Positions 6,083 to 62,274 of a DNA stretch of 64,000 nucleotides are shown in pieces. Both the position numbers and the translations under genes were made by a program. Positions within the stretch are counted from its first letter, which is position 1; each line of letters opens with the position of its first letter. The stretch lies in contig VYEX01000062.1 in NCBI GenBank assembly GCA_009842675.1, forward strand, positions 15,218 through 79,217, in the 5' to 3' direction. The notes under the pieces were generated by a model, which was given only the letters and a program-made list of their open reading frames with translations, made no database searches and was not told the origin of the DNA. Source of the stretch: Acidimicrobiia bacterium (lineage in GTDB: Bacteria > Actinomycetota > Acidimicrobiia > Acidimicrobiales > Bin134).

Positions 6083-7165
6083 TCACCACCGGCAGGCCTC
6101 TGGAATGGCGGGATGTTCGGGGGCGGGGTACTTGCGGTGTAACGGCTTTACCACCTCCTCGCCGAAGCGCTGGATCTGCTCGCGGGTAGCTTCGAAAGAC
6201 GGCCCGGTGACCATGCGGAACTGCACGGTGAAATACTGCACGCCCAGTTCCTCGTAGTACTGCTCCAACCGTTCCCGGCATTGGGCAGGGGAGCCCACCA
6301 CGATGTGCTCGCGGGCCGATTCGGTGGTGATCTTCTCGGGAGAGTCGAATTCGGGGTGGTGGGCCAGGATGCCCTGCTCGCAGTAGAACCGCATTTCGGG
6401 CACATAGTGGGTCCCGTACTGCTCGGCTGCCTGTTCGAAGGTGTCGGCCACCCATGCTTTGCGCATCAGAACGACAAAAGGCTCCTTGCCGTGCTCGATG
6501 GCCTTGGCCCGATAGGCGCCCGCCTGTTGATCCCATACCTCCTTGAGGATGGGAAAGTCGTCGCAAGTCCAAGACTCCGCGTAGACCCCACACCGCTCGA
6601 TGGCCGCGGGCAGCTGTCCGCCGCCCCAGAAGGGGAACCGGGGCTGCTGATAAGAATTGGGCGACAACAAGCCGTCGTTCACCTGATAGAAGTCTCCGTC
6701 CCAGCTGAACCGTTCGCCCTTGGATTGCAGGGCCTTGTCGATGACGGCCACGTTCTCCAGGTAGCGGCCCAACATCCGCTCAGGTGGAACGCCGAACTGG
6801 CCCCAGTAGCCGGCGTGGAAACCCCGACCCCAGGTCATGTACAGCCTACCCCTCGAGATGTTGTCGATAATGGCGCACTGCTCGGCCACCTCCATGGGGT
6901 GATAGAGCGTGTTGACCAAGCAGTAGGAGCCGATGGCCACCCTGCTGGTCTCCCGGGCCAAGATCATCAACAGATTTAGCGGCGAGCCGAAGTACGACTC
7001 GGTTCGGCCATGGCGGTCGGGCACTTGAATCGAGTGGAATCCCGACTGCTCGGCCAAGATGCCTTCTTCGATCATGGCATCAAGGACGTCGGCTGCGTTG
7101 GCGGGCTCGGGAAGAGGCTGGTCGTAGTACCCATGGTTGGTGTCGATCAGATAGCCGATGCGCAA
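6083..7165 (-). CDS. LLM-class (luciferase-like) flavin-dependent oxidoreductase
   Basis: MRIGYLIDT..., SGFHSIQVPDRHG, SRGRLYMTWGRGF. Typical luciferase-like monooxygenase layout, 360 aa. Confidence 0.75.
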   Translation of the reverse strand: MRIGYLIDTNHGYYDQPLPEPANAADVLDAMIEEGILAEQSGFHSIQVPDRHGRTESYFGSPLNLLMILARETSRVAIGSYCLVNTLYHPMEVAEQCAIIDNISRGRLYMTWGRGFHAGYWGQFGVPPERMLGRYLENVAVIDKALQSKGERFSWDGDFYQVNDGLLSPNSYQQPRFPFWGGGQLPAAIERCGVYAESWTCDDFPILKEVWDQQAGAYRAKAIEHGKEPFVVLMRKAWVADTFEQAAEQYGTHYVPEMRFYCEQGILAHHPEFDSPEKITTESAREHIVVGSPAQCRERLEQYYEELGVQYFTVQFRMVTGPSFEATREQIQRFGEEVVKPLHRKYPAPEHPAIPEACRW

Positions 7166-10907: not shown

Positions 10908-11369
10908 GTGACGGAATTGGATCCAATCGATCGATCGATCCTCAACGAACTCCAGACCGATGCTCGCATGTCCAACGTGGAACTTGCCGATCGAGTGGGC
11001 TTATCGCCCTCGGCCTGCTATCGGAGGGTCCGTCGACTGGAAGCTGAAGGGGTGATCGCCGGCTACGTGATGATCGTCAACCCTGAAGCCATCAACCGCT
11101 CTCTGGACGTATTCGTCGAGATCTCCTTGGTAAGCCAGAGCGAAGCCAATCTGCGTCAATTCGAGAAGGAGGTCGTGGAATGCCCAGAGGTTATGTCCTG
11201 CCATCTGATGGCTGGCGATGCCGACTACCTCCTCCACCTGGCCGTGGCCGATCAGCGGGACTTTGAGCGGATCCACAACCAATACCTGTCGCGTTTCAGC
11301 GGAGTAGGTCGCCTCCGGTCCAGCTTTGCCATCCGCTCTGTATGGGAGACCACCCGCCACGAGCTCTAG
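10908..11369 (+). CDS. Lrp/AsnC-family transcriptional regulator
   Basis: DPIDRSILNELQTDARMSNVELADRVGLSPSACYRRVRRLEAEGVI HTH followed by a RAM-type domain. Divergent from ald, as with the mycobacterial aldR-ald pair. Confidence 0.85.
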   Translation: MTELDPIDRSILNELQTDARMSNVELADRVGLSPSACYRRVRRLEAEGVIAGYVMIVNPEAINRSLDVFVEISLVSQSEANLRQFEKEVVECPEVMSCHLMAGDADYLLHLAVADQRDFERIHNQYLSRFSGVGRLRSSFAIRSVWETTRHEL

Positions 11370-11378
11370 CTTTGAGTC

Positions 11379-12362
11379 ATGACCACTGCCGCCCAGCACA
11401 CCTACGACTCCTACGAAGATTTGGTGGAGGACTATTTCGAGAGGGGATGGACAGATGGTCTTCCCGTCATGCCCCCCACGCCCGACAAGGTGACCGCATT
11501 TCTTGATGGCGCCGGGCTCTCCGGGGACGAAGTGCTGGGAACAGTTCCCACCCGGGAGGTGACGTGTACCGCGGAGCAGGCGGCGGCAAACGCAGTCATG
11601 GCTGGTTGCCTGCCCGAGTATTTCCCAACAGTGGTGGCCGCGGTTCGAGCTCATCTCCATCCCAAGGGCAACTGCCACTCGACCACCGGAACACTGTCGG
11701 GCGCCGCTCAGGCGGTCATCATCAACGGACCCGTCCGAAACGAGCTCGGCGTAGCCTCAGGGGCCGGCTGCTTCGGACCCGGATTCAGGGCCAACGCCAC
11801 CATAGGCCGGGCGCTGCGCTTAGTGATTCGCAACGTGTGCCGGGGGATTCCCGGTTTCTTGGACCGGGCCAGCTTTTCCACCCCGGCTCGCTACACCTTC
11901 TGCTTCGGGGAGAACGAAGAGGTCTCCGACTGGGAGCCACTGCACGTTCAACGGGGCCTGTCTCCCGAGCAAAGTGGGGTAACTGTCCACTCCCTGATGA
12001 AGATGGTCGAGGCCACCGATTTCACCAGCCGCACCGCCGAGGCAGTGTGCGAGACCCTGGTGCGCGACATCCGGGCCAATGGAGTCGCGGGCGATTCCTG
12101 GCTAGGAGAGGACGGCAACTTAGTCATCGTGATCGGCCATGAGCATCATCGGTTCTTTCTCGAAGAGGGATGGTCTAAGGCCGACATACAGCAATACCTA
12201 TGGCCCCGGCTCAATGCCCCCGCCACCAGCGCCACCGACCGGATGGCCCGTATCGGCAAGCCCGAGGGCATCCTCATCGTGGCTGCCGGTGGAGCAGGCA
12301 TGGGGGCAAGCTGGCTATTACTACCCCACCTGGCCCTCGCCATCACCGAACCAATTCTGTGA
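11379..12362 (+). CDS. conserved hypothetical protein (GWTDGLPVMPPT motif)
   Basis: 327-aa ORF with strong GC3 bias. No family recognised. Lies between the Lrp regulator gene and the TGA-containing gene on the same strand. Confidence 0.6.
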   Translation: MTTAAQHTYDSYEDLVEDYFERGWTDGLPVMPPTPDKVTAFLDGAGLSGDEVLGTVPTREVTCTAEQAAANAVMAGCLPEYFPTVVAAVRAHLHPKGNCHSTTGTLSGAAQAVIINGPVRNELGVASGAGCFGPGFRANATIGRALRLVIRNVCRGIPGFLDRASFSTPARYTFCFGENEEVSDWEPLHVQRGLSPEQSGVTVHSLMKMVEATDFTSRTAEAVCETLVRDIRANGVAGDSWLGEDGNLVIVIGHEHHRFFLEEGWSKADIQQYLWPRLNAPATSATDRMARIGKPEGILIVAAGGAGMGASWLLLPHLALAITEPIL

Positions 12363-12386
12363 AGAAGAACAGGCTAGGGTAAGGAC

Positions 12387-12935
12387 ATGACTGCCCTTAT
12401 CGGCCTCGACCCAACTTCGGGCCCGTTCGACCGTACTGACGATCACGAATTCTCTCCCCGGCCAGCCAGTCTGGACGGAGCAGTGGTCGCTTTGGTAGCT
12501 AATGGCCTCGGCGAGGGGGAGATCTTCCTGGATGCCCTCTACGACGAGCTGACCAAGCTGAGCGATCCTCTAGCCCCGCTCAAGGTGGTCAAGAGCTCGG
12601 TGTCGATAGCCCCTGATCCCGGTGATTGGAGCAGGCTCACTGAGGAGGCAACAGTCGCGATAACCGGCTTTGGCGGTTGAGGCAGCTGTAGTGCCCGCAG
12701 TTTGCGGGACGCAGTGGAGCTCGAGTGGGCCGGTGTCCCCAGTGTCGCCATCGTCCACGAGGAGATGAGGGGCTCAGCCCAGGCAATCGCCCGAGTGAGC
12801 GGATGCCCAGACTATGAGTTTCTTGCCGCCAATTACCCGTGGACCCCCACCGCTATCTGGTCCAAGGAGGAGTGCCTCGAGTTGGCCGAGATCATGGCCC
12901 CCAAGGTCTTGGCCGCATTGACTGGCCAGAGCTAA
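12387..12935 (+). CDS. candidate selenoprotein with a U-G-S-C (UxxC) motif; in-frame TGA at 12678-12680
   Basis: ORFs 12387-12680 and 12702-12935 are in the same frame and separated by only one TGA (...ITGFGG-TGA-GSCSARSLRD...). The downstream part has no ATG or GTG start and no SD. A hairpin follows the TGA. The joined product is 182 aa with Sec at residue 98. Confidence 0.6.
12685..12715 (+). promoter_or_regulatory. SECIS-like mRNA hairpin
   Basis: 13 pairs including two G-U. Upper stem 12694-12699 pairs with 12703-12708 (cccgca/tgcggg) with loop GUU. Lower stem 12685-12692 pairs with 12709-12715. Single-nucleotide bulges at A12690 and G12693. The hairpin starts 5 nt after the UGA. Confidence 0.45.
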
Positions 12936-28088: not shown

Positions 28089-30269
28089 TCAACCGGCCGC
28101 CTTTTGGCGGCGGCGGTGGGCGGTGAGGATCGGCTCGGTGTAGCCGTTGGGCTGATCGCGGCCTTCCAGCACCAAGGCCAACGCGGCGCTGAACGGAATA
28201 CTGGTCGCCAAGTCACTGCTCATGTACTCGTAGGCAGGATCGTCGGCGTTCTGGCTGTCAACCACAGAGGCCATGCGCTTCATGGTCTCCACCACCTGCT
28301 CTTCCGACAGCAGCCCGTGGTGGAGCCAGTTGGCGATGTGCTGGGACGAGATCCGAAGGGTGGCCCGGTCTTCCATCAAAGCGACGTTGTCGATATCGGG
28401 GACTTTGGAACATCCCACTCCCTGGCCCACCCATCGGGTCACGTAACCCAGGATTCCTTGGGCGTTGTTGTCCAGATCCCGTTGGATCTCCGCGGGTGAG
28501 AGCTCGCGATCCGACGGCAAGACCGCGGGGGCGAGCATGGCTTGAACGGCCTCGGCACGGTCTGGCGGCGAGATTGCAATCTCTGTCTGTCGAGCGGCAA
28601 CGTCGGTTTCCAGATAGTGCAGTGCGTGCAAAGTGGCTGCGGTGGGGGAGGGGACCCACGCGGTGGTTGCTCCCGCTTGAGGATGGCCAATCTTCTCGTC
28701 CAGCATGGCCGCCATGTCGTCGGGCCGAGCCCACATTCCCTTGCCGATCTGGGCATGCCCCGGCAGACCCATAGCCAGCCCGACGGCCACATTGGCCTCC
28801 TCATAGGCGTTCAGCCATCCCGACGCCTTGATCTCCGCTTTGGGGACCATGGCGCCGGCCTCCATGTTGGTATGGATGTCATCGCCGGTTCGGTCCAGAA
28901 AGCCGGTGTTGATGAACACCACCCGCTCTGAGGCCTCGGCAATGCAGGCGGCCAAATTGAGAGACGTCCGGCGCTCCTCGTCCATGATCCCCATTTTCAG
29001 CGTGTTGGGAGACAGGCCCAAGATGCCCTCAACCTCAGTGAACAATTCACGAATCAGAGCCGTTTCGCGGGGACCGTGCAGCTTGGGCATCACGATGTAC
29101 ACCGACCCGGTTTGGCTGTTGCGATGAGAGTCAGTGCCGGTCAGATTGTGGAGGGCACCCCAAGCTGCCACCGCCACGTCGACGATGGTCTCGGGAATCG
29201 GCTGGCCATTTAGGCAAACCATGTCGGTTTCCATATGCAGGCCCACGCTGCGGATCAACATGACGCTGCGGCGACGCACCGAGATGGGACTTCCCAACCG
29301 GTCGATCACCGTCGAGTCGGCATTCAGGCTGCGGGTCATGGCCTGGCCGCCCTTGGTGAATGAGGCGATAAGAGTGCCCTGCATCAGGCCGAGCCAGTTG
29401 GCATAGGCCAGGGTCTTGTCCTCCGCGTCCACCGCGGCCACCGAGTCTTCAAGGTCCATTATGGCGGTCAGGGCCGATTCCATCATCACATCAGCCACCC
29501 CTGCGGGGTCATCTCGGCCGATGGCGTGGTCGCGGTCGATCACCAGCTCAATGTGGAGGCCGTGCTTGCGCAGCAGCACTGTTTCGGGAGCCGAAGTCAC
29601 ACCGGTATACCCGGCAAACTGCTCGGGAACGAGCAGCTCTGCGGAGGTGCCATCGGTAAGTTCAACCCGCAGCCCATTGGCAGTCACCGTGTAGGCCACC
29701 GCGTCGACATGGGAGCCGGAGGACAACGGGACATGGTCGTCCAGCAGAGCCCGAACCCGGGCGATCACCCGCTGGCCCCGAACCGGGTTGTATGGCCCAC
29801 TTCGACCGGCGCCCTCCGCCTCGTCGATTACGTCGGTGCCGTAGAAGGCGTCGTACAGGCTGCCCCAGCGAGCGTTGGCCGCGTTGAGGGCATAGCGGGC
29901 GTTGTCCAGCGGTACGACAAGCTGGGGCCCGGCCAGCGATGCGATTTCAGGGTCCACACCCGAAGTAGTCACCGGCACTGGTCCGGGATCTTCAACCAGG
30001 TACCCGATGGAGCGCAGGAAGTCAGTCGCCTCCTCGGGTTCCGAACCCCGGTCGAGGTGCCAGGAATCGATTCGAGCCTGGAGGTCGTCGCGCTCATCCA
30101 AGCTGGCTCGCACCCGCGGCATGAAGCGTTCGACGATCTGCTCCAAGGACGACCAGAAATCCCCGACCCCCACATTGGTGCCAGGTGCAAGCTGATTGCG
30201 GACGAAGTCGTCCAGTGGGCTGGCCACTTCGAGCATTCCATGGGTCTCGTAGGTCATGGGCACGGCCAC
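28089..30269 (-). CDS. glcB: malate synthase G
   Basis: About 725 aa with GlcB-like sequence throughout (N-terminal [13 protein letters not shown]..., central [20 protein letters not shown]-terminal PNGYTEPIL). The start could be 30257 (MTYE). Confidence 0.9.
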
Positions 30270-30398
30270 AGGGTAGAAGTTGCTTTGGCCGATTTCTCAA
30301 GCAAGGTCATGTTTCCTGGAAATAAAGGTGCAGTTAGGGCTAGCGCGGTTGCTATCGTCGCCGGACAACCACCCTCACCTGACCTGAGAGGTATCAAT

Positions 30399-32669
30399 AT
30401 GGCCGCCAACGTTGCCGGTTCATTCGATGCCGAGGTTCGATCCACCCAGTCGTGGATGGCCTCGCCCCGCTTCGAGGGGATTACCCGCCTGTACTCGGCC
30501 CGTCAAGTAGTGGAGCAACGCGGGGCCCTCAATCAGGATCACACCGTGGCTCGATTGGCCTCTGAGCGGTTCTATGCCCGCTTGCGGGAGCTGTTCGAAC
30601 AAGGACAGTGCATCTCCACTTTCGGCCCCTACTCGCCGGGTCAGGCCGTGGCCATGAAGCGAGCCGGGATCGAGGGTATCTACCTGGGCGGATGGGCCAC
30701 TTCCGCGAAGGGTTCTCTGCACGAGGATCCCGGTCCCGACTTGGCCAGCTACCCGCTGGGCATGGTTCCCGACGAGGCGGCAGGGTTGGTCCGAGCGCTG
30801 TTGACCGCCGATCGCAACCAGCGGTTCGCCCGGTCGCGGATGAGCATTGAAGAGCGCATGAGCGCCCCGGAGGTGGACTTCACTCCGTCGATAATCGCCG
30901 ATGCCGATACCGGCCACGGCGGTGACGCCCACGTTCGAAATCTGATCCGCCGATTCGTCGAGGCCGGAGTGCCCGGGTACCACATCGAGGACCAAAAGCC
31001 CGGGGTCAAGAAGTGCGGGCATCAAGGCGGCAAGGTGTTGGTGCCGTGCGACGAACAGATCAAGCGGCTCAATGCGGCCCGATTCCAGTTGGACGTAATG
31101 GGCGTTCCCGGCATCATCGTGGCCCGCACCGATGCCGAAGCTGCCAATTTGTTGGATGGTGGAACTGACGAGCGGGATCAGCCGTTCATCATGGGGGCTA
31201 CCCAGCAATCAGTCCCGTCGTACAAAGATGCCTATCTCGCGGTCCTGCGCCTGTTGGCCGAAGCCGGAGTAGAAGGGGTGAACGGTCATCTGCTGTATGC
31301 AGTGCCCGAGAACCGTTACAAGCGGGCCATTGCCTGGCTTGATCAGACCGGAGTCAACCAGATCATCGAGAAGGCTGCGGTCACGTACCACGCCTCCCCT
31401 GATCCCCGGGCCGACGACGCAGTCGACCGAGCCTCCGATGCGCTGGCCGAAGCGTGGCACCGGGCGTCGGGGCTGGCTACCTATGCCCAGGCCGTGGCCG
31501 ATCAGCTGTCGCTTCGGACATCGGAGGGGGAGAGTTTCGGAATGGAAGTGGGGGAGTGGCTCAGCTTCGCCCGCACAGTCGACACTGCCACCGCCCGAGG
31601 CCGGGCCGCGGAGATGGGTCTTGATGTGGCCTGGAACGCTGAGGTGGCCCGAACCACCGAGGGTTACTACCAGGTGCAGGGTGGCATCCCCTACGCCGTG
31701 GCCAAGTCCCTGGCTGTGGCCCCGTACTGCGACTTGCTTTGGATGGAAACCAAGACCGCCGACCTTGAGGACGCCAAGGAGTTCGCCGAGGCCGTCCATG
31801 CCGTGCATCCCGACAAGATGCTGGCCTACAACCTGTCGCCCTCCTTCAACTGGGACACCACCGGCATGACCGAGGACGAGATGCGCGAGTTTCCCGCCGA
31901 ACTGGGTCAACTCGGGTTCGTGTTCAACTTCATCACCTACGGCGGACACCAAATCGACGGCATGGCCGGCGAGGAGTTTGCCGCCTCCCTTCAACAAGAC
32001 GGCATGCTGGCTCTAGCGCGGCTTCAGAGGAAGTTCCGCCTGGTCGACTCCCCGTACAAGACACCCCAAACGTTGGTGGGTGGCCCCCGGCTCGATGCCG
32101 CTCTCATGGCCAGCTCCGGCCGCACTGCCACCACCCGGGCCATGGGAAAGGGATCGACCCAGTTCCAACACCTCGTACAGACCGAGGTACCCACCCGGGA
32201 GCTCGAAGGCTGGCTCGAGCGGTGGGCACTGCACAACAACGTCGATGCCGAACTGAAGGTGCAACTGCGCCCCTATACCGCGGGTTCCGAGATCCTCGAA
32301 CTTGTGGTTCGCAGCGGCGACAACGACCTGGCCAACGTGGTGTTCGGGGTGCTGCACGACCGGCGCCGTCGGGCCATCCTCTCGGTACGAGACCAGAACA
32401 CCCACAGTCCTGCGTTGCGCCGCAAACGGCTGATGACCCTGATGCACCTCTATCTGATCCGGCGCTACAACGCAGTATCGGTCCAGTATCTGACCCCCAC
32501 CGAGGATAACTTTCGACAGGCCGCGGGTATGCGAGGAATGGGGTTCTACTCCTCGGTATCCGACGAGGTGGGGCAGATCACCGTTGCCGATGTCGACGAA
32601 GAGGTGGTTGTCAACTTGGTTACCGACGACGACTCCCTCCAGCAGCTCATCACCGGACGGGAGACGTAG
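30399..32669 (+). CDS. aceA: isocitrate lyase, long (ICL2/AceAb-type, 756 aa)
   Basis: ICL signature [20 protein letters not shown], and a long C-terminal extension. The ATG at 30399 follows a 129-bp spacer. The upstream 291 codons of the track ORF are antisense to glcB. Confidence 0.9.
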
Positions 32670-39701: not shown

Positions 39702-40823
39702 ATGGGTACGGTCTGGCCAGTCAAGGCCTTGATTCTTCTGCTTGCACTGGCGGCCGCGGGCTGTGGGTCGGGCGATCACGGAGCACCCGGACCTTCGCAA
39801 ACACCTTCGGAGCAGACCTCCAGCGGCCCAACCGCGGAAGTGCTCGACTTTCAGACTGGTACCGCCAGTACGGCATCCGGACCAGCCCCCACGGCCACTG
39901 GGACATCGGATCAGCGCACCGGTGCAGTTGTACCTCTCATAGCCTCTGCCGTAACGAGTGCTACTCCGAGCCCGGGTGCTGGGGCAGGTGGCTCTCCCCC
40001 AGACCCCACCGCCCGGGCGATTGCCATCCCCGTGCCCACCCGAGATGCAGTTGCTGCTTCATCGCCGCCGAAGCTCTCCCTGCTTCGCAACGCCTCGCAA
40101 TCCAGTCCGTTCCACCAGTTCGGAGACGGCGTATACACCTGGGACGATCACCGGAGGATCGTCGTGCTGGCGGTTCCTGCCGACCACCCATCCTTGGATG
40201 AGGTCAGGGAGATCGGCGGCCATTGGGATGGGACCATTGAAGACACCGCCGGAACACGAGTGTGGGTTCAGCAGTGTGCCCGACAGCTCGCCGATAACGC
40301 CCTTGAATCCTCTGATGCGGTGTATGGAGCGGTCTCGGCTCAGGCCGTTCACGCCTGCATGGGCGGACTGACCCACCTAGCAGAGTTATTTGCCCGCTAT
40401 TGGTGGACTGAGGCAGGGGTCGGTTGCCTGTCCGACGCGGTCACAACTCATTCCCTCCACGGTGACAACCGGTCCAGGCCGCTAGCCGTTTGCCCATCCA
40501 TCGGCTACGACCCGGCTGCGCCTCGGCCGCTGGGATGGTTGGCACAGCGCTGCGCGGAAATCGCGGCCGCCCATCCCAATCCAAAATATCCGTCGGTTGC
40601 CGCCCAGCCGGGTCAACCCCTTCCCTCCTGTTGGGAGCCTCTGCTGGCGATCATTGAAGCCCACGCGGCCGAGAGTGCCGAGATCGGCCTTCCCGACAGC
40701 CCCCACGACTGTTACCACGCGTTCTTGGGCTATGTGTGGGCCCGGCAGACCGATCGGGAGAGCCGCCCGCCCAACGACCTGGCCATCGGCTGCCACTACC
40801 GGGCTTTCGAGGCCATCCCATGA
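39702..40823 (+). CDS. lipoprotein of unknown family with a Cys-rich C-terminal domain
   Basis: MGTVWPVKALILLLALAAAGCGS (signal plus AAGC lipobox) with GGAGGG SD upstream. About 110 residues of low-complexity S/T/P/A/G linker, then a domain with 8 Cys. Confidence 0.7.
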   Translation: MGTVWPVKALILLLALAAAGCGSGDHGAPGPSQTPSEQTSSGPTAEVLDFQTGTASTASGPAPTATGTSDQRTGAVVPLIASAVTSATPSPGAGAGGSPPDPTARAIAIPVPTRDAVAASSPPKLSLLRNASQSSPFHQFGDGVYTWDDHRRIVVLAVPADHPSLDEVREIGGHWDGTIEDTAGTRVWVQQCARQLADNALESSDAVYGAVSAQAVHACMGGLTHLAELFARYWWTEAGVGCLSDAVTTHSLHGDNRSRPLAVCPSIGYDPAAPRPLGWLAQRCAEIAAAHPNPKYPSVAAQPGQPLPSCWEPLLAIIEAHAAESAEIGLPDSPHDCYHAFLGYVWARQTDRESRPPNDLAIGCHYRAFEAIP

Positions 40824-42157
40824 CGGCCTCATCGAGCAGAGCAATGTTGCGAGCCCTGCTGGCTGTTGGCCTGCTGGCTGGCGGGCTAGCACTGGTGGCT
40901 TCCGCCGGCCCATCGGCCCATGCCCATGAACAGACCAGACTCGTAGCGGCCAGCGGAACAGGTCGGTGCCCTTCCGGCATACAGAACTGCTCGGAAACTT
41001 GGACGCACGTCAACTCCTGGACCCACTACACCGCCCGCGTTCCCTCGAACTGCGAAGTTGACATCATCGACCAGTGCGGGGTCCGCGTGACATCCAGGTC
41101 GGCCTCCAGCTCGTGCCGGAATTCCGCCAACTGCGGGCACGGCCCGCACAGCAGCACTCCCCGACCCACTGGCCCCGGCACGTGGACCACATGGAACGGA
41201 CACCAGAACACCAACTACCGATGGTCGGGACCAAGGCAGGAACCCGTCGAACACGAACATGGCACGCCGAATCCGTCTCCGACCCCTTCGCCTTCTGAAC
41301 CGAGCCCCGACCCGTCTCCTGCCCCTTCGCCGTCCGAGCCAAGTCCGGCCCCGCCATTCTTCGACCCGTCTGACATCGACTGGAGCAATTTCGATCCGTG
41401 TGCCAACGGCGGCTGTGTGCCCCCCTGTTTAACCGATGGAATCGCCAACAGCTGCCCGTGGGAGTCGCTCCCACCCAAGGTCTGCACCACGGCGTGGGGC
41501 AAGGTTCAGCGAGAGGCGCTGCTCAGCAGGCTCCGTTGGGAGTCGATTGTTCCCTATTCCCCGGGGTTCACCGGGCACCACCCCGAAGTTCCCGGCGGTC
41601 ATCTGTACTTGACGGCAGCTTCGAGCCCCAACAGTCCGGCTCGCCACTGGACGGCAATTCAGCCGGGCACCACGCTCGACGTGCAGGATGCCCCGGTTGA
41701 CGGATGTTTGTGGACGGCCAATGCCGTCGGCGTGTCTTTGCAAGAGCTGATCCCCCACGAGGCCGCTGATCTGACCAGGCTTAGATCTGCGAGCGCCGTG
41801 GCCGCCGCAGACGAGGCCCACCAAGCCGCGGAATTGTGGGACCGGCTGAGCGTTCAGCGGCGCCAGTGGTTCCAGGCCGCCTTTCCCCGGAATGACCCCC
41901 CAATCGTCTGGTGCTCCCCCGCTGACTTGCCCCCATGGACGATTCCGGCCAGCGACGTGCTTAGCCTTCCATCCGACTGGGAAGACCGATTCGGAAAGTG
42001 CCGTTGGACAATCCCCCGCCGCGGCTTTTGGGAGTGGGAACTCCAAATCCAGTACAGCTCGGAGCAAGGCAACCTCCACACGGAAGTGGTGGCTTCTGAT
42101 CTGTCTTGGTTCCGCGAGCCCACCGGTTACGTCGATCAGCAGGTGACCCTGTGGTGA
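40820..42157 (+). CDS. secreted Cys-rich protein of unknown family with a PSPSEPSP linker
   Basis: The ATG overlaps the upstream stop (ATGA). Signal peptide MTASSSRAMLRALLAVGLLAGGLALVASAGPSAHA. Proline-rich linker PNPSPTPSPSEPSPDPSPAPSPSEPSPAPP. Confidence 0.65.
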   Translation: MTASSSRAMLRALLAVGLLAGGLALVASAGPSAHAHEQTRLVAASGTGRCPSGIQNCSETWTHVNSWTHYTARVPSNCEVDIIDQCGVRVTSRSASSSCRNSANCGHGPHSSTPRPTGPGTWTTWNGHQNTNYRWSGPRQEPVEHEHGTPNPSPTPSPSEPSPDPSPAPSPSEPSPAPPFFDPSDIDWSNFDPCANGGCVPPCLTDGIANSCPWESLPPKVCTTAWGKVQREALLSRLRWESIVPYSPGFTGHHPEVPGGHLYLTAASSPNSPARHWTAIQPGTTLDVQDAPVDGCLWTANAVGVSLQELIPHEAADLTRLRSASAVAAADEAHQAAELWDRLSVQRRQWFQAAFPRNDPPIVWCSPADLPPWTIPASDVLSLPSDWEDRFGKCRWTIPRRGFWEWELQIQYSSEQGNLHTEVVASDLSWFREPTGYVDQQVTLW

Positions 42158-42813
42158 GCGGGCCCGGCCGCGACCAGTGGTCGCCCGCATCCTGGCCGGT
42201 GAGCCTTCGGTGGCGTCTGCTGGCGGCAGCGATCGTGCTGGCCGCCACCGTGGCGACAATCGCGGCCTTATCCCGCGATGGTGACTCCATCTCGGAGGTC
42301 CCGGTGGTGGCCGCTGCCCAGCGGTGGACCGCGGGGCACCCGCCTGGAGAGCTCCTCATCATCGACATGCCCGCCGATAAGGCCATCTTCTTCGTTCATC
42401 CATCGGAGATGGATGGTGCCATTGCCGCCGTGGATGTACCCGAGGGAACGCTGGTATCGCCCCAAATGCTGCGCCCCCGCCAACGTGACGACGACACCAG
42501 GAGAACCACCCTGATGCGGTTCGGTGTGAACGACGAGATGTGGCCCGCTCCCGGTCCAGCGCCTGGTAACCGAGCTGTGTTCTCTTCGTCACCCGGAGGG
42601 TGCGCCGCAGCCTTGGTTACTTTGGTGGCGGTTAACGACGACGGTGTTGTCGAATCCGGTGTGACGGTGGAGGCGGACCCCGAACTGGCCGCGGTGCTCT
42701 CTGATGGCCAGTGGTGGATCTGGGAATCGCCTCCTGGCCGTTGGCCCCTGTGTGAGCCATCGAGAAGCAACCCCTCCCCTACCCTCGATGCAGAAAACAG
42801 GGCGGTCCGCTGA
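42154..42813 (+). CDS. membrane-anchored protein, possibly CpaB/RcpC-like (SAF-type)
   Basis: The GTG overlaps the upstream stop (GTGA). Single N-terminal TM (WRLLAAAIVLAATVATIAAL). AAVDVPEGTLVSPQML resembles SAF-domain motifs. The position before the ATPase gene matches CpaB. Confidence 0.4.
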   Translation: MSGPGRDQWSPASWPVSLRWRLLAAAIVLAATVATIAALSRDGDSISEVPVVAAAQRWTAGHPPGELLIIDMPADKAIFFVHPSEMDGAIAAVDVPEGTLVSPQMLRPRQRDDDTRRTTLMRFGVNDEMWPAPGPAPGNRAVFSSSPGGCAAALVTLVAVNDDGVVESGVTVEADPELAAVLSDGQWWIWESPPGRWPLCEPSRSNPSPTLDAENRAVR

Positions 42814-44357
42814 TGCTCTTGGCGGTAGGCGACCGATGGCTCGACGCCGAGGCAGTGAAGCAGGTCATGGACGGGGTGTTGGAGGGCATGGCCAGTACTG
42901 CCCCTGGGGCAGCCTTGGCCACCTCACCGGCTGAAGTCGACCAGGCGTCGGCCGCCGGCCACCCCACCGTTCTGCTGATGCGGGACGACGAACCCGAGAT
43001 ACGTCTCGAATCAGCAGTGGCATCGGCTGCCGCCGTGTTATGGATCACCACCGCTGATAGCTCCGACGTGCGTTCCCTTCTCCGGTTGGACACAGGGTCG
43101 CGCCGTAACACCCCAATCGTCTCGGTTGTGGTGTCCGACAACCAGCCCGACCGAGAGCGATTTCGCCGCCAACGAGTGATCAGCCTGTGGATACCCCCCG
43201 AACCCGCCCGGCGCGATCTGCGCCGGCTGCATCGACTCGGGCGCCGACTGGCGTGGACGGCGGTCGCGCCTCGCCGGCTAGATCCGCTCGATCGAGAGAC
43301 CCATCTGTGGGCTGCTTCTCAAGCCGCCCAAACCCGCCTGGCCGACCTACTCGAGGAAACCGGGGTCGAGGAGTTTCAGATCAGGGGCGGAGAGTGCATG
43401 ATCGTTCATCGGGCCGAAGGGCAGCGGGAGCGCCGGAACTCGCCCTTTGCGTCCAACGAAGAGTTGATCGAAACAGCCCGCCACCTGGCCAGCTTCTCTG
43501 GTGGCCAACCCCAGCGCTTCGACGTGCTCGACAGTCGGTTGGACATACGCCTCGGTGGCCGGTGGAGGCTCCACGCCGAGGCGTTCATGTGTCATCCCCC
43601 CACGATGGTGCTGCGATCGAACATGGCCGGCGAGGCCACGCTGGGCGATCTCAATGTGGCTACCGCACCGCTTCAGAAGATCCTGATAGGGGCAGTCTCG
43701 GGGCCCGTCAGGGCCAACATTGTGATCGCTGCTGCGATGGGCGGAGGCAAGACCACCCTTTGTCAGGCTCTGCTAGCCACCGTCGACAGCTCCGAGAGGA
43801 TCGACACCATTGAGGACACTCCTGAGCTCCGATTGGCTCAGTACGGCATCCATCCCAACAGCTACGAGCGCCTCACCCGTGACGCCAACAACGACGGCGT
43901 GGGAAAACTGGCCATGAGCGACCATATACGCGACGCCAAACGGGCCAACTCGTCCAAGTTGGTGATAGGCGAGACCAGAGGAGAGGGAACGCTGGCCTTG
44001 CTGGACGCCATGAGCAGCGGGCTGAGCGGTTGTCTGGTCACCCTGCACAGCCAGCCCGGCGCAGGGGTGTTGGCCAAACTGCTGTCCTATGCGTGCAGTG
44101 AAGGCGCAGACCCCCGATTCGCCCGCCAGCAAATTGCCATTGCAGTTCAACTCCTCGTGTGGATGGGCCGCAACGAACTCGGTGAGAGGGTGATCTCCGA
44201 CGTCTCCCAGATCGTCAGCTACGACGAGCGCAATGACACCATCGACACCCGGTGCTTGTGGTCCCTTCGCCCTGGCCAGCGGTGGGCTGCCCCCGCGGGA
44301 CTGCCCCACGGACAGATAGAGCGTCTGTACCAATCCGCGGGGATGAAGGTCCAATGA
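42813..44357 (+). CDS. tadA: TadA/CpaF-family secretion ATPase with an N-terminal extension of about 170 aa
   Basis: Walker A AAAMGGGKTTL, Asp box IEDTPEL, Walker B KLVIGETRG, His box VTLHS. TGATG junction with the upstream gene. Confidence 0.8.
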   Translation: MLLAVGDRWLDAEAVKQVMDGVLEGMASTAPGAALATSPAEVDQASAAGHPTVLLMRDDEPEIRLESAVASAAAVLWITTADSSDVRSLLRLDTGSRRNTPIVSVVVSDNQPDRERFRRQRVISLWIPPEPARRDLRRLHRLGRRLAWTAVAPRRLDPLDRETHLWAASQAAQTRLADLLEETGVEEFQIRGGECMIVHRAEGQRERRNSPFASNEELIETARHLASFSGGQPQRFDVLDSRLDIRLGGRWRLHAEAFMCHPPTMVLRSNMAGEATLGDLNVATAPLQKILIGAVSGPVRANIVIAAAMGGGKTTLCQALLATVDSSERIDTIEDTPELRLAQYGIHPNSYERLTRDANNDGVGKLAMSDHIRDAKRANSSKLVIGETRGEGTLALLDAMSSGLSGCLVTLHSQPGAGVLAKLLSYACSEGADPRFARQQIAIAVQLLVWMGRNELGERVISDVSQIVSYDERNDTIDTRCLWSLRPGQRWAAPAGLPHGQIERLYQSAGMKVQ

Positions 44358-45169
44358 CCGGGTCCACCGTCATCGTCCTTCTCGCTGGGATCGCGCTGAT
44401 GTCCGTCATCTGGTGGCCGAATTCTGCAAACAGCCCCACCACACTGCTGCTGGGAAGCGTGGTGCTGTCCCCGCGACCCTCCCTTCGAGCAGGCACGATT
44501 GCAGCAATTGTGGCGGTTGGACTCGGCTTTGTCCTTGGACTGCTGTTGGTTGGGGCGACCACCGGGCTAGCAGCCATGATCCTGACTACCGTCGGAGTCT
44601 GGTCGGTAGCAGTGCAGATCCGCTCGCGCCGAAGCCTTCAGGCATCCGACGAACTGGCCCAGCTGACAAACGGCTTGGCCAACCAGGCCTTGGTGGCCCC
44701 CACCGTGGTGGAGGCCGTGCGCCAAGCTGCGCCCCTGATCCCCGGACAGGTCGGCTCGGCTGCCCGGCGAATGGCCGCCGAATGCGAGACCGGAGGTCTA
44801 GTAGAAGCCGCCAACCGCTTTGCCACCGCCATCCGACGCCCAGTTGCCGAAATGCTGGCCACGGTACTGACCGAGGCGTTCAGGGGTGGATCCCAATGGG
44901 TGGGCTTGGCCGGAGTCCTTGCCGAGGAGGCCAACGAGGCGGCCGACACGGCGCGGCACTTCCACCGGCATGTGGCCGCGCTCATGCCCCAGATCGCTGT
45001 CACACTGGTGATGGCCGTCGCCATGTTGGCCATCACCGGATTCGCCGCCAAGGACGTGGGTCGGTGGCTGACCTCTCCGCCGGGACAGCAGCTTCTCCTT
45101 CTCCTGGCCGTGCTCGCCGCGGCCCTCTGCGCCCGGGTGCTGGCCCCGGCCTGGAGGCTTAGCCGATGA
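44354..45169 (+). CDS. tadB: TadB-like (T2SS-F domain) inner-membrane protein
   Basis: ATGA overlap. N-terminal TMs, a cytoplasmic helical domain, then C-terminal TMs, directly after the ATPase gene. The assignment is by topology and gene order. Confidence 0.55.
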   Translation: MTGSTVIVLLAGIALMSVIWWPNSANSPTTLLLGSVVLSPRPSLRAGTIAAIVAVGLGFVLGLLLVGATTGLAAMILTTVGVWSVAVQIRSRRSLQASDELAQLTNGLANQALVAPTVVEAVRQAAPLIPGQVGSAARRMAAECETGGLVEAANRFATAIRRPVAEMLATVLTEAFRGGSQWVGLAGVLAEEANEAADTARHFHRHVAALMPQIAVTLVMAVAMLAITGFAAKDVGRWLTSPPGQQLLLLLAVLAAALCARVLAPAWRLSR

Positions 45170-47417: not shown

Positions 47418-48647
47418 GTGTCTCGAAGGATAGATATTGAGCTGACCAGCCAACGGCCCGATGGCTCTTGGACCTGGCGGGCCGCCGGTGCCCGCGAGCC
47501 CAAGGGCGAACTGGCCGGCGATCTGATTGCCTTCTCCGCCAATGTGGGTGACGAGCTGACCGTCGAGGCCGAGTTCCACATGGACGGCATCGAGATCATC
47601 GAGGCATTCGAGTCCAAGAAGAAGCGTCCCATGCCCGAAACTCTCGAGATTCTGGGCTCCGGTAGGGATCAACCCCTCGTAACCACCCAACTGGTGCCTA
47701 GCCGCAAGAGTCGAGACCGTGATCGCCCACGGGGTGACCGCCGGGGTCGTCAGGATCGACGCAGCCGAGGCGACCGAAAAGAGCGTGATCACCAAGAGTC
47801 TCGCCGCCAGGACGATCGCCCCAAGGCCAAGCGACTGCGCCCGGGTCGAACCCACCGCCAAGCGCTTATCGAAGACCTGCCCGAAGATCAACAGTCGGTA
47901 GCGGAGCGGATGGTTCGCGAGGGCGTCAGCTCGGTAGAGCAGGCCCTGCGTGACCAGCGTAAGAAGGCCCGCGATGCCGCCAAGGCCAAAAAGGAGGCCG
48001 CCCAAAAGGCCGCCAAAGAAGCCGAATCCCCCCAAACAGAACCAGCCGATGACTTCTTGAGTGCGGCCGGCAAACTGCTGCCTCGCATGCGCGCCGCGGA
48101 GTGGCGTGATCGGGCTGACGCTGCGCTGGCCGGCATCGACGAGATCGACCTGCGCGATCTCCGCTCGGTGGTGGTAGCCGCCGAGGCCGGAGCGGCCGAT
48201 GAGGAGGCTAAAGCACTGGCTGAAGAGCTCCGCACCAAGCTCACCGAGCGGGTCGACCGAGAGCACGCCGAATGGCTGGCCGAAGTGGCCGCCACGCTGG
48301 CCGATGGCCGCATGGTCCGAGCCTTGCGGCTTAGCTCTCGACCCCCCAAGGCCGGGGTGCCCCTCCCCCAGGACATGGTCACCCGGCTGACAGACGCAGC
48401 CAGCGCCGCTTTGACCAGCGATACGCCAACAAAGCGCTGGACTACTGTCCTCGGCGCGGTTGCGTTCTCACCGGTGCGCCGGACTGTGCAGCCTCAGGGC
48501 ATACCGGAGAAGCCCGACAAGGAGTTGCTGGCTGAGGTAACCAAGCTCTCCGAGCGGGTTCCCCACATTGCGGCCTTGTTCGGGGTGGAGCCCACTCCGC
48601 CACCCAAGCGCGGTCGTCGGGGTGCGGGGAAGCAGGCCTCTACCTAG
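47418..48647 (+). CDS. conserved hypothetical protein with an Arg/Asp-rich low-complexity centre
   Basis: Strong GC3 bias on the + strand (the 325-aa antisense ORF is rejected). The N-terminal domain RIDIELTSQRPDGSWTWRAAG is followed by SRKSRDRDRPRGDRRGRQDRRSRGDRKERD and a Lys/Ala/Glu-rich helix. Confidence 0.6.
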   Translation: MSRRIDIELTSQRPDGSWTWRAAGAREPKGELAGDLIAFSANVGDELTVEAEFHMDGIEIIEAFESKKKRPMPETLEILGSGRDQPLVTTQLVPSRKSRDRDRPRGDRRGRQDRRSRGDRKERDHQESRRQDDRPKAKRLRPGRTHRQALIEDLPEDQQSVAERMVREGVSSVEQALRDQRKKARDAAKAKKEAAQKAAKEAESPQTEPADDFLSAAGKLLPRMRAAEWRDRADAALAGIDEIDLRDLRSVVVAAEAGAADEEAKALAEELRTKLTERVDREHAEWLAEVAATLADGRMVRALRLSSRPPKAGVPLPQDMVTRLTDAASAALTSDTPTKRWTTVLGAVAFSPVRRTVQPQGIPEKPDKELLAEVTKLSERVPHIAALFGVEPTPPPKRGRRGAGKQAST

Positions 48648-53274: not shown

Positions 53275-53886
53275 TCAGACCACCACGGTGAGCGCGGCCG
53301 GCTCCACCCGGATAGACACATTGGAGGCCCGCTGAACCGGCTCCCCGTCCAACTCCACCATCAACGGCCCCTGGAACTCGACCTGGAACGCCCCCGTACG
53401 ATGGCACCGAATTTGGGGGTGGGGCAGGTGGTCTCCAGTGCCGACCCTTCGCAGGGCTCGCAGCCGATCCCCGGTCGACAAGTGCCCGTGGGAGATGTCC
53501 AGCAGTCCATCGCCTGGGTGGGCTTTGGGACCCAGATTCCAAGTCCCTCGCCAAGCCGCATTCATGGCCACGAGAGCCTCGCCAGCCCACCCCTTCCTCC
53601 GGGCAACAAGATGGGCGCAGAACCAGAACAAACGACCGTCCAGCAATACGGCCCCCAGATCCACATCGAACCGCCACGCTTCCAGCGAGCGAATGGCGTC
53701 GGCATCGCCCCGACCTCCGAGCGTGCGACACAGATCTCCTCCCAGCAGTCCGAGTTCGGGAAGCGGGCGATTGGTCCGGCGTGCCTCCTCTATCAGCCTT
53801 CGGGCCTCGGCATCGTTGTCAACTAGCACGCCGTTGGGTCCCAAGCCGCCGGTTTCACCCCAGTCCTCCCCTCGACGGATTGGCAT
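53275..53886 (-). CDS. hypothetical protein resembling the C-terminal part of DAGK/YegS-type lipid kinases
   Basis: HPGDGLLDI...LRALRRVGTGDHL...VELDGEPV pattern. No clear GGDGT catalytic loop. Confidence 0.35.
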   Translation of the reverse strand: MPIRRGEDWGETGGLGPNGVLVDNDAEARRLIEEARRTNRPLPELGLLGGDLCRTLGGRGDADAIRSLEAWRFDVDLGAVLLDGRLFWFCAHLVARRKGWAGEALVAMNAAWRGTWNLGPKAHPGDGLLDISHGHLSTGDRLRALRRVGTGDHLPHPQIRCHRTGAFQVEFQGPLMVELDGEPVQRASNVSIRVEPAALTVVV

Positions 53887-53891
53887 ATCGC

Positions 53892-54755: not shown

Positions 54756-55075
54756 GGGCTGCTTTGCGGTTGGTCGAAGGCCTGTGTTGCTCCCGGCCCA
54801 TCCTTCTCGCCGTCAGTCGTTGCCCCTGGCTCCTTTTCTTTGCCGTTGGCCAGCTTGTCCTCTTCGACGGCAATTCTGCCTCGACGACGGGCCTCCTCCT
54901 CAATGGGCTCGTCGAGGGCATTTTGCAACTCCTGCTGGAACCCCGTGGAGATCTTGCGCACCTGTCGGATTACATTGCCGATCTGACGGGCCGCCCCGGG
55001 CAGCTTCTCAGGTCCCAACACCACTAGAGCCACCACCACGATTACCGCGATCTCAGCCCATCCGAGGTTGCCCAC
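54752..55075 (-). CDS. tatA: twin-arginine translocase subunit TatA/E
   Basis: MGNLGWAEIAVIVVVALVVLGPEKLPGAARQIG (TM plus amphipathic helix) and a charged tail. Confidence 0.85.
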   Translation of the reverse strand: MGNLGWAEIAVIVVVALVVLGPEKLPGAARQIGNVIRQVRKISTGFQQELQNALDEPIEEEARRRGRIAVEEDKLANGKEKEPGATTDGEKDGPGATQAFDQPQSSP

Positions 55076-59371: not shown

Positions 59372-59387
59372 CAGCGCGACGAAGACA

Positions 59388-60746: not shown

Positions 60747-60783
60747 GCCTATCTGCTTCCCATGCCGAAAGTCCGCCGCTCCA

Positions 60784-62258: not shown

Positions 62259-62274
62259 AGTTTGCAGACTACCG

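What the first reader, a model, noticed from the sequence alone, without database searches (positions are those of the whole stretch)
12387..12935. In-frame TGA followed by GSC: candidate UxxC selenoprotein split into two ORFs by standard translation
Seen: ORF 12387-12680 ends ...EEATVAITGFGG-TGA. The same frame continues with no other stop as GSCSARSLRDAVELEWAGVPSVAIVHEEMRG... to TAA at 12933-12935. GC-rich third positions persist on both sides. The upstream part has a purine-rich AGGGTAAGGA before its ATG. The downstream part has only a TTG 21 nt past the TGA and no SD. Established: bacterial Sec is encoded by UGA plus a downstream hairpin, and U-x-x-C is the selenium version of the CxxC redox motif. 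I recall a RefSeq family name 'UGSC family (seleno)protein', but cannot verify it here. Inference: this is one 182-aa redox selenoprotein with Sec at residue 98, which automated callers would mis-annotate as two fragments or a pseudogene.
Basis: partly seen in the sequence, partly recalled or inferred. Interest (0 to 1): 0.8.

Follow-up and report, generated by a model that had tools for sequence, protein, structure and literature searches.

The report
UGSC selenoprotein gene with obligate partner
The in-frame TGA is a genuine selenocysteine codon in a member of the already-described UGSC selenoprotein family, which databases split into two "hypothetical proteins", and it is always paired with an uncharacterised enzyme gene that probably uses it as a redox helper.

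Summary
Window 12387-12935 (+) is one 182-codon gene with a single in-frame TGA (12678-12680) in the motif GFGG-U-GSC. The joined protein matches Pfam PF24696 "UGSC family" full length (128 bits, cut-off 25). It falls below the NCBIfam equivalog NF041046 cut-off (79.5 vs 125). In 60 of 61 species-level genome loci the TGA sits at the same column; the 61st is masked there. All 27 full-length database homologues have Cys at that column. Purifying selection is equal on both sides of the TGA (pN/pS 0.066 and 0.077). A 9-bp hairpin at 12691-12712 with a GUU loop is conserved, shows one three-way compensatory pair at synonymous sites, and has suppressed synonymous change. TGA is an ordinary stop for 13 of 33 other genes in the window. 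GenBank records the two halves as adjacent hypothetical proteins. The family has been known since 2007-2008, so this is a new member of a known kind. New here: a 327-aa gene with no Pfam, NCBIfam or PDB relative (11379-12362) is adjacent in 66 of 69 loci and is fused to UGSC in both orders elsewhere. In one protein a Redoxin CxxC domain replaces UGSC. The sel genes could not be checked.

The parts
11379..12362 (+). Partner gene: a 327-aa protein of an uncurated family. It ends with TGA 24 nt before the UGSC start. Invariant residues include C77, H92, H100, C131, C154, C175, H189, H256 and H317, plus the motifs GWTDGLP and GNCHSTTGTLSGA.
   Evidence: It has no Pfam hit (E<=10), no significant NCBIfam hit (only a 12.7-bit match at E=0.12) and no significant PDB sequence hit (best E 0.73). 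It lies immediately upstream of UGSC in 58 of 61 loci and is adjacent in 8 of 8 further loci. It is fused to UGSC in other organisms. Invariant columns come from alignment A3. The AF2 model has pLDDT 85.3 and no solved relative.
12376..12385 (+). Purine-rich Shine-Dalgarno-like stretch AGGGTAAGGA ahead of the UGSC start codon.
   Evidence: Read directly from the sequence. The N-terminus MxxIGLDPT is conserved in homologues, which supports the ATG at 12387.
12387..12935 (+). Complete UGSC-family selenoprotein coding sequence: 182 codons, Sec at codon 98, TAA stop at 12933-12935.
   Evidence: Pfam PF24696 at 128.4 bits, covering residues 7-179 of the protein and positions 3-171 of the 172-position model. 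NCBIfam NF041046 at 79.5 bits, below its cut-off of 125. tblastn runs through the TGA in 61 loci. pN/pS is 0.066 upstream and 0.077 downstream of the TGA.
12678..12680 (+). Sec codon (UGA), residue 98.
   Evidence: TGA is present at this column in 60 of 61 loci, and the remaining locus is masked with N there. Cys occupies this column in 27 of 27 full-length homologues.
12678..12689 (+). U-G-S-C redox motif (Sec98-Gly-Ser-Cys101).
   Evidence: The columns G94, F95, G96, G97, C98, G99, S100, C101 and S102 are invariant. In the AF2 model of the Cys-form homologue, the motif lies between strand 90-94 and the start of helix 99-114.
12691..12712 (+). SECIS-type hairpin. It has 9 base pairs and a bulged A at 12709. 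The apical loop is G-U-U at 12700-12702. The covarying pair is 12695/12707. Two further possible pairs would extend it to 12688-12715.
   Evidence: RNAalifold predicts these 9 pairs independently. 100% of 385 pair cells form standard pairs, against 95.7% in shuffles, and 0 of 500 shuffles reach the observed value. Pair 18-30 occurs as CG 22, GC 12 and AU 1. Codon counts are CGC 59/59, AGT 59/59 and TTG 57/59. Ala+5 and Arg+9 third positions covary as 45/13/1. Synonymous divergence is 0.170 here versus 0.40-0.43 elsewhere in the gene.
10908..11369 (+). Lrp/AsnC-type regulator ending 9 nt before the partner gene. It may be co-transcribed in this clade only.
   Evidence: Pfam HTH_24, HTH_AsnC-type and AsnC_trans_reg. 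It is conserved next to the pair only in the Poriferisocius clade. No promoter- or terminator-like site separates the three genes.

Best explanation
Window 12387-12935 is one gene for a 182-residue selenoprotein of the UGSC family.

Shown: the UGA at 12678 is conserved as UGA across 60 species and corresponds to Cys in the Cys-form homologues. The sequence after it is translated and under purifying selection. A conserved hairpin with a GUU loop starts 11 nt after the UGA.

Inferred from the established bacterial mechanism: SelB carrying Sec-tRNA(Sec) binds this hairpin on the translating mRNA and inserts selenocysteine at residue 98.

Inferred for the protein: Sec98 and Cys101 sit at the N-terminal end of a helix in a flavodoxin/Rossmann-like alpha/beta domain. 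They cycle between selenol/thiol and selenenylsulfide. They serve as the redox-relay subunit of the 327-residue enzyme encoded 24 nt upstream (11379-12362). The chemistry of that enzyme is unknown, but it has several invariant Cys and His residues.

My confidence is about 0.93 that this is a Sec-encoding UGSC gene, and about 0.6 that UGSC acts as a redox partner of the upstream protein.
For: Family: Pfam PF24696 at 128 bits, full length.
Sec codon: TGA at the same column in 60 of 61 species-level loci spanning Acidimicrobiia, other Actinomycetota, Myxococcota and Proteobacteria. Cys at that column in 27 of 27 full-length homologues.
Translation past the TGA: pN/pS is 0.066 before and 0.077 after it.
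SECIS: the same 9-bp hairpin is found by RNAalifold. All pair cells are paired, and one pair has three Watson-Crick types, both of its positions being synonymous third positions. The loop codons are frozen to 1 of 6 synonymous choices. Synonymous divergence is 0.17 versus 0.40-0.43. Cys-form genes lose the GUU loop.
No global recoding: TGA ends 13 of 33 Pfam-supported ORFs in the window, including the partner gene.
Partner coupling: adjacent in 58 of 61 loci plus 8 of 8 further loci, while no other neighbour is conserved outside the clade. Fusions occur as UGSC-partner and partner-UGSC, in both Cys and Sec forms. P0380 has an AhpC/TSA-Redoxin domain with a CATC motif in place of UGSC.
Structure: the U/C-x-x-C motif lies at a strand-to-helix junction.
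Literature: UGSC is listed as a UxxC selenoprotein family with 255 Sec and 21 Cys sequences in GOS (PMC2398784).
Against: No selA, selB, selD or tRNA-Sec is present in the 64-kb window or in the ±6 kb flanks of 60 related loci. So Sec-decoding capacity of this genome is inferred, not shown.
The hairpin is not significant by single-sequence folding energy (z = -0.6 and -1.0).
Four Cys-form genes keep 7-9 of the 9 stem pairs, so part of the stem is a by-product of the Arg...Arg-Asp codons.
Only one pair shows two-sided covariation.
No Rfam family matched.
The NCBIfam equivalog cut-off is not reached.
The redox-relay role rests on gene linkage, fusions and motif position only. No structure of the complex exists, no substrate is known, and neither model has a close solved relative.
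The UGSC model was built on a 56%-identical Cys-form homologue, not on the window protein.
Confidence: 0.85

Rival explanations
1. The TGA is a real stop. The locus encodes a 97-aa protein, and perhaps a separate 77-aa protein starting at the TTG at 12702, as GenBank annotates it.
For: Gene callers and GenBank records list the two halves as separate hypothetical proteins. TGA is a normal stop elsewhere in the window.
Against: Both halves always stay in the same frame with no indel across 60 species. Cys-form homologues are single 180-200-aa proteins with Cys at the TGA column. The codons between the TGA and the TTG (GSCSARS) are invariant at the protein level. There is no Shine-Dalgarno sequence before the TTG. 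One Pfam domain spans both halves.
Confidence: 0.03
2. It is a pseudogene, or the TGA is a sequencing error at a Cys codon (TGC/TGT to TGA).
For: A single base change turns TGC or TGT into TGA. Some related assemblies do carry indel errors nearby (L035 and L062).
Against: The same TGA occurs in 60 independent species-level assemblies. pN/pS downstream is 0.077. The RNA hairpin is conserved with a compensatory change.
Confidence: 0.01
3. The UGA is read through without selenocysteine, for example by near-cognate Trp or Cys insertion or by a reassigned code. The hairpin would then merely stimulate read-through.
For: The Sec machinery was not seen in the window. Hairpins downstream of stop codons can promote read-through; this is my own general knowledge.
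Against: TGA terminates 13 of 33 other genes here, including the gene directly upstream. The aligned residue in homologues is Cys within a CxxC-type motif, which is the classical Sec/Cys exchange. The hairpin has the position and the loop G that the literature describes for bacterial SECIS elements (PMC1976440, PMC12013277). The family is catalogued as a selenoprotein family (PMC2398784, PMC13188914).
Confidence: 0.04
4. UGSC is a free-standing thioredoxin-like oxidoreductase, as proposed in 2008, and its adjacency to the 327-aa gene has no mechanistic meaning.
For: The 2008 paper suggested a Trx-like fold (PMC2398784). The UxxC motif resembles those of Trx-fold selenoproteins.
Against: The AF2 model has five alternating beta-alpha units and lacks the Trx beta-hairpin. 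Foldseek hits are flavodoxin-like or Rossmann-like and all have TM below 0.5. Gene adjacency holds across phyla, and fusions occur in both orders.
Confidence: 0.07

Closest known systems
UGSC-containing selenoprotein family (Pfam PF24696; NCBIfam NF041046; Zhang & Gladyshev 2008, PMC2398784; first noted in Hyphomonas neptunium, PMC1976440)
   Same: Full-length Pfam match. Identical U-G-S-C motif. Sec forms outnumber Cys forms: about 88 truncated versus 27 full-length proteins here, and 255 versus 21 in GOS. Fusion with the 'Unknown_1' domain, which corresponds to the partner family found here.
   Different: It scores below the NCBIfam equivalog cut-off (79.5 vs 125), so it is a divergent actinobacterial or Acidimicrobiia branch that NCBI's naming rule would not capture. 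The predicted fold is flavodoxin/Rossmann-like rather than the Trx-like fold suggested in 2008.
Bacterial SECIS elements (fdhF type; the bSECISearch consensus)
   Same: A hairpin inside the coding sequence that starts 11 nt after the UGA, with a G in a small apical loop and a bulged nucleotide in the stem. The literature describes bacterial SECIS as a stem-loop immediately downstream of the UGA with conserved loop guanosines (PMC12013277, PMC1976440).
   Different: The loop has only 3 nt (GUU). No Rfam model matched. bSECISearch itself could not be run. SelB binding is untested.
Thioredoxin-fold UxxC/CxxU selenoproteins (Trx-like, Prx-like, SelW-like)
   Same: A two-residue-spaced Sec/Cys pair at the N-terminus of a helix. 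Sec/Cys exchange among homologues. A Redoxin CxxC domain can occupy the same fusion position next to the partner enzyme.
   Different: The secondary-structure order is five alternating beta-alpha units. There is no Pfam or PDB sequence similarity to Trx-fold families, and the Foldseek matches are flavodoxin-like.
Two-subunit selenoenzymes with a dedicated selenoprotein subunit (glycine reductase GrdA/GrdB, D-proline reductase PrdA/PrdB)
   Same: A selenoprotein with a Sec/Cys motif is encoded next to a catalytic partner. This analogy comes from my own knowledge.
   Different: No sequence relationship was detected: Pfam GRDB did not match at E<=1. The partner has no recognisable family, and the genomic context is aerobic and actinobacterial. 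This is an analogy only.

Membership tests
UGSC family (Pfam PF24696) | Full-length profile match above the gathering score | tested here: met
   128.4 bits against a cut-off of 25, covering residues 7-179 on model positions 3-171 of 172.
UGSC family (Pfam PF24696) | U/C-G-S-C motif at the conserved position after GFGG | tested here: met
   GFGG-TGA-GSC at 12666-12689. These columns are invariant in alignments A2 and A4.
UGSC family (seleno)protein, NCBIfam NF041046 (equivalog) | Score at or above the curated cut-off (125 bits) | tested here: not met
   79.5 bits, E 2.5e-22, covering residues 31-179. It is homologous, but outside the equivalog as NCBI defines it.
Bacterial selenoprotein gene | In-frame UGA conserved among orthologues and aligned to Cys in other homologues | tested here: met
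   TGA in 60 of 61 loci; Cys in 27 of 27 full-length homologues.
Bacterial selenoprotein gene | Coding constraint continues downstream of the UGA | tested here: met
   pN/pS is 0.077 downstream and 0.066 upstream, measured on 28 close genes.
Bacterial selenoprotein gene | SECIS hairpin immediately downstream of the UGA with a G in the apical loop | tested here: met
   Hairpin at 12691-12712 with a GUU loop. 100% of pair cells are paired, with one three-type compensatory pair. Codons are frozen and synonymous divergence is reduced. Caveat: the stem is partly retained in Cys forms.
Bacterial selenoprotein gene | Genome encodes selA, selB, selD and tRNA-Sec | not testable with these tools
   None are present in the 64-kb window or in the flanks of 60 loci.
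Bacterial selenoprotein gene | Selenium is incorporated in the protein | not testable with these tools
   This needs 75Se labelling or mass spectrometry.
Thioredoxin-fold oxidoreductases | Trx fold (beta-alpha-beta-alpha-beta-beta-alpha with an antiparallel hairpin) | tested here: not met
   The AF2 model of the Cys-form homologue P0001 (pLDDT 88.5) has five alternating beta-alpha units. The top Foldseek hits are flavodoxin-like or Rossmann-like, with TM below 0.5. This rests on a model, not an experimental structure.
Thioredoxin-fold oxidoreductases | CxxC-type motif at the N-terminus of a helix | tested here: met
   C98 and C101 lie between strand 90-94 and helix 99-114.

The most novel reading that the evidence does not exclude
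UGSC and the 327-aa partner together form a widespread, uncharacterised two-component selenoenzyme. The partner superfamily has at least 5,719 clusters at 50% identity. The partner would be a catalytic subunit with a fold that has no solved relative and no Pfam model. UGSC would be its dedicated selenol/thiol redox subunit on a non-thioredoxin (flavodoxin-like) scaffold. Some lineages add a small NifU-like CxxC protein.
Probability: 0.45. Interest if true: 0.6.

Novelty: new member of a known kind. Interest (0 to 1): 0.35.

Why it matters
For annotation: this clade's UGSC genes score below NCBI's equivalog cut-off. They are deposited as two adjacent hypothetical proteins, with clusters of 94 N-halves and 39 C-halves. 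As a result, the selenoproteome of sponge-associated Acidimicrobiia is under-counted.

For biology: UGSC is one of the most abundant aquatic selenoprotein families, and its function is still unknown after almost 20 years. Three results here turn 'unknown function' into a concrete target for experiments, namely co-expression, an interaction assay and a substrate search. First, UGSC is almost never found without the 327-aa partner. Second, the two are fused in both orders. Third, a Redoxin CxxC domain can replace UGSC.

Tried and rejected
- Single-sequence RNA folding of the region after the TGA gave non-significant z-scores (-0.6 and -1.0). It is uninformative in GC-rich coding sequence, so I replaced it with comparative analysis.
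- Rfam at gathering thresholds gave no hit.
- ARAGORN found no tRNA or tRNA-Sec in the window or in 60 loci.
- A Pfam screen of 41 window ORFs (10 plus one rescan, and 30) found no selA, selB or selD.
- A scan for a second TGA-containing gene in the window found nothing convincing. The 262 + 262 aa pair at 30420-31997 (-) looks like two tandem genes.
- PDB sequence searches for both proteins found nothing significant.
- Foldseek against PDB gave no hit with TM of 0.5 or more for either model. I therefore rejected a relationship of the partner to Toblerone-fold hydrolases or class I fumarases, because TM was only 0.2-0.3.
So I cannot say whether any source annotates the full-length Sec form.
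- Greedy ORF clustering of neighbourhoods was confounded by antisense ORFs in GC-rich DNA. I replaced it with called genes from the look-up of encoding contigs.
- No conserved pathway context emerged. The neighbours (SDR, Amidohydro_2, luciferase-like, ECH, MFS, APH) vary between lineages.
- The literature on 'Poriferisocius' contains nothing on selenium.

Full report
**1. Observation**

Window 12387-12935 (+) reads as one frame with a single internal stop. The translation is MTALIGLDPT...ITGFGG, then TGA at 12678-12680, then GSCSARSLRDAVELEW...TGQS, then TAA at 12933-12935. The ORF list shows it as a 97-aa ATG ORF (12387-12680) and a 77-aa TTG ORF (12702-12935). AGGGTAAGGA lies at 12376-12385. 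GC3 is 0.70 upstream and 0.72 downstream of the TGA. Taken alone, though, a TGA bridging two open stretches is common in this 62% GC window: 300 such cases were found. The case therefore rests on comparative evidence.

**2. Family**

With Cys substituted for the TGA, the joined protein matches Pfam PF24696 'UGSC family' end to end, at 128.4 bits against a cut-off of 25. It also matches NCBIfam NF041046 'UGSC family (seleno)protein' at 79.5 bits, which is below that equivalog's cut-off of 125.

The family is well documented. It was noted in Hyphomonas neptunium and in Olavius symbionts as 'a selenoprotein of unknown function' (PMC1976440). It was one of the most abundant GOS selenoprotein families, with a UxxC motif, 255 Sec and 21 Cys sequences, and enrichment in non-marine samples (PMC2398784). 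It is still listed as uncharacterised in 2022 and 2026 reviews (PMC9312934, PMC13188914).

**3. Organism**

The closest loci, at 88-98% amino-acid identity, are MAGs of 'Candidatus Poriferisocius' and other sponge-associated Acidimicrobiia (the Sva0996 group). A pupylation locus in the window (two Pup-ligase paralogues and two WYL-domain regulators, the first also with a PafC-type HTH) fits Actinomycetota.

**4. Is the TGA decoded?**

- *Conservation of the codon.* In 61 loci, one per GTDB species, from Acidimicrobiia, other Actinomycetota, Frankiaceae, Myxococcota and Proteobacteria, 60 carry TGA at exactly this column followed by GSCSARS. L030 is masked with N at the site. L035 has an upstream 1-nt frameshift but keeps the TGA.
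- *Cys homologues.* All 27 full-length (150-263 aa) database homologues read GFGG-C-GSC. About 88 further hits are ~100-aa proteins ending in ...GFGG, which are N-halves cut at the TGA by gene callers.
- *Selection.* Among 28 close genes, pN/pS is 0.066 for codons 1-97 and 0.077 for codons 99-182. Selection does not notice the 'stop'.
- *No recoding.* TGA is the ordinary terminator of 13 of 33 Pfam-supported ORFs in the window, including the gene immediately upstream (12360-12362). Genome-wide recoding is therefore excluded.

**5. SECIS**

*The structure.* An alignment of 35 distinct sequences, from the TGA to +48 (A1), has no indels. RNAalifold predicts a 9-bp hairpin at columns 14-35, which is window 12691-12712. 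It has a bulged A (12709) and a G-U-U loop (12700-12702).

*Covariation.* For my slightly extended structure, all 385 pair cells form standard pairs, against 95.7% in shuffles, and 0 of 500 shuffles reach that value. Pair 18-30 occurs as C-G (22), G-C (12) and A-U (1). Both members of that pair are synonymous third positions. Ala+5 is GCC/GCG/GCA and Arg+9 is CGG/CGC/CGU, each with counts of 45/13/1 across 59 sequences.

*Frozen codons.* The codons between them are fixed: CGC in 59 of 59, AGT in 59 of 59, and TTG in 57 of 59. Each of these amino acids has six synonymous codons, and the flanking codons use 3-5 of theirs. Synonymous divergence in codons 99-111 is 0.170, against 0.40-0.43 in the rest of the gene.

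*Control.* Four Cys-form genes (L062-L065) keep 7-9 of the 9 stem pairs. They lose the GUU loop, which becomes CGC, CAA, GCA or CCA, and they vary at the protein level there (S[AST]R[SA][LM]). Part of the stem is therefore intrinsic to the Arg...Arg-Asp codons. The Sec-specific signal is the frozen loop plus the covarying pair.

*Caveats.* Single-sequence folding energies are not significant, and Rfam has no match. The position (11 nt after the UGA) and the loop G agree with published descriptions of bacterial SECIS elements (PMC12013277, PMC1976440).

**6. What could not be shown**

No tRNA, selA, selB or selD lies in the window or in the flanks of 60 loci. The Sec machinery of this genome is therefore inferred from the conservation pattern, not observed.

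**7. Mis-annotation**

Exact look-ups show the window's 97-aa and 77-aa halves in public collections, in clusters of 94 and 39 members. GenBank MAG records carry them as separate 'hypothetical proteins' with consecutive locus tags, for example OXH23_08870 (MCY3635701.1) and OXH23_08875 (MCY3635702.1). Called genes on four other contigs show the same split, with both pieces hitting PF24696.

**8. The partner**

*Linkage.* The ORF at 11379-12362 (327 aa) ends 24 nt before the UGSC start. By tblastn it lies immediately upstream of UGSC in 58 of 61 loci at 62-98% identity. The exceptions are L057, where the contig ends at the gene; L052, where it is elsewhere in the locus on the other strand; and L005, where it lies about 370 nt further upstream. 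No other neighbour is shared outside the Poriferisocius clade. It is also adjacent in all four Cys-form loci, once in reversed order, and in four further loci.

*No known family.* It has no Pfam hit at E<=10, no significant NCBIfam hit and no PDB sequence match. Even so, a word-indexed search saturates at 7,980 hits, and a full profile search finds 5,719 clusters at 50% identity with E<=0.001.

*Model and conserved residues.* The AF2 model is confident (pLDDT 85.3, pTM 0.88). Foldseek against PDB finds nothing at E<=0.001 and no TM above 0.31. Invariant residues include C77, H92, H100, C131, C154, C175, H189, H256 and H317. The two low-confidence loops, 100-107 and 162-169, carry invariant motifs. 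I infer that these are functional loops.

**9. Fusions**

- P0015 joins the partner's C-terminus (partner residues 247-301, E 1e-8) to a Cys-form UGSC.
- Among the 150 best partner representatives, 14 carry UGSC segments.
- Full N-terminal UGSC plus partner, with C-G-[SN]-C: P0301, P0359, P0375, P0387 and P0390. Two others have degenerate motifs.
- The C-terminal half of UGSC plus partner: P0362 starts LRDAIDFEWLGL, directly after the SECIS peptide. These are Sec-form fusions that were called after the TGA.
- Partner plus the N-terminal half of UGSC, ending ...AVGD or ...AIGD: P0297 and P0320. These are reversed-order Sec-form fusions cut at the TGA.
- P0380 carries an AhpC/TSA-Redoxin domain with a C-A-T-C motif where UGSC would be.

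This matches and extends the 'UGSC/Unknown_1 fusion' of the 2008 paper (PMC2398784). It argues that UGSC supplies a dithiol or selenol-thiol redox function to the partner.

**10. UGSC fold**

The AF2 model of the closest Cys-form homologue, P0001 (56% identity, pLDDT 88.5, pTM 0.85), has five alternating beta-alpha units. C98 and C101 lie at the junction of strand 90-94 and helix 99-114. Foldseek returns flavodoxin-like, SurE and GTPase-type Rossmann-like domains, all with TM below 0.5. This does not support the 'likely Trx-like fold' suggested in 2008. The placement of the motif at a helix N-terminus is nevertheless typical of redox-active CxxC sites; that point is from my own knowledge.

**11. 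Mechanism**

*Shown:* a conserved UGA, translated downstream sequence, a conserved hairpin, and obligate linkage and fusion with the partner.

*Inferred:* SelB-dependent Sec insertion at residue 98; a Sec98/Cys101 selenenylsulfide redox cycle; and electron relay to or from the partner enzyme, whose substrate is unknown.

The neighbouring genes vary (SDR, Amidohydro_2, luciferase-like, ECH, MFS, APH, an Lrp regulator) and do not define a pathway.

**12. Verdict**

This is a genuine selenoprotein gene of a known family. It is a new, mis-annotated member in sponge-associated Acidimicrobiia. The added value is the partner-gene and fusion evidence and the fold assignment. Interest is moderate to low for the finding as stated, and moderate for the two-component module.

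Noticed in passing
L066:9764-9997, L067:9559-9801, L069:9570-9815, L064:4717-4977, L065:4694-4957; also L037, L038, L039: A small ORF of 77-87 aa with a CxxC motif (…EEC-x-TCV…; weak Pfam NifU hit) sits next to the partner-UGSC pair in 8 of 70 sources. It is downstream of UGSC in the Sec-form loci L038, L039, L066, L067 and L069, and upstream of the partner in the Cys-form loci L064 and L065 and in Sec-form L037. It is absent from the window and its clade. It may be a third redox component.
   Followed up: partly
proteins P0278, P0282, P0288, P0290, P0299, P0302: Proteins of about 710-740 aa contain two or three matched stretches of the partner profile (tandem duplication of the partner domain) and have no Pfam hit.
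   Followed up: no
protein P0015: A partner-UGSC fusion protein is labelled 'Ricinus communis' in NCBI and UniRef. It sits on a 1.5-kb contig and is almost certainly bacterial contamination of the plant assembly.
   Followed up: partly
L030:~6289-6300; L035:6001-6547; L062:4995-5968: L030 has a run of N exactly over the Sec codon and the start of the SECIS. L035 (UGSC gene) and L062 (partner gene) carry frameshifts. These are probably assembly indels rather than pseudogenes, but this was not resolved.
   Followed up: partly
window 29526-32669 (+) versus 30420-31208 and 31209-31997 (-): A 1047-aa ORF on the plus strand overlaps two equal-length (262 aa) tandem ORFs on the minus strand. Those two are in the same frame and separated only by a TGA, and neither has a Pfam hit. 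It is unresolved which strand is coding.
   Followed up: partly
window 57453-63906 (-): An actinobacterial pupylation locus: two WYL-domain regulators (57453-58409, which also has a PafC-type HTH, and 58406-59371) and two Pup-ligase-family genes (59388-60998 and 62536-63906). This is consistent with an Actinomycetota origin.
   Followed up: no
window 50377-51993 (-): A 538-aa ORF has two matched stretches of the ThyX (Thy1) domain, which is about twice the usual ThyX length.
   Followed up: no
window 39702-42157, 44252-45169, 47418-48647, 53781-54986 (+): Several long ORFs (305-473 aa) have no Pfam family at E<=1e-5. They lie near a T2SSE-type ATPase gene (42813-44357) and may form a pilus or secretion cluster.
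   Followed up: no
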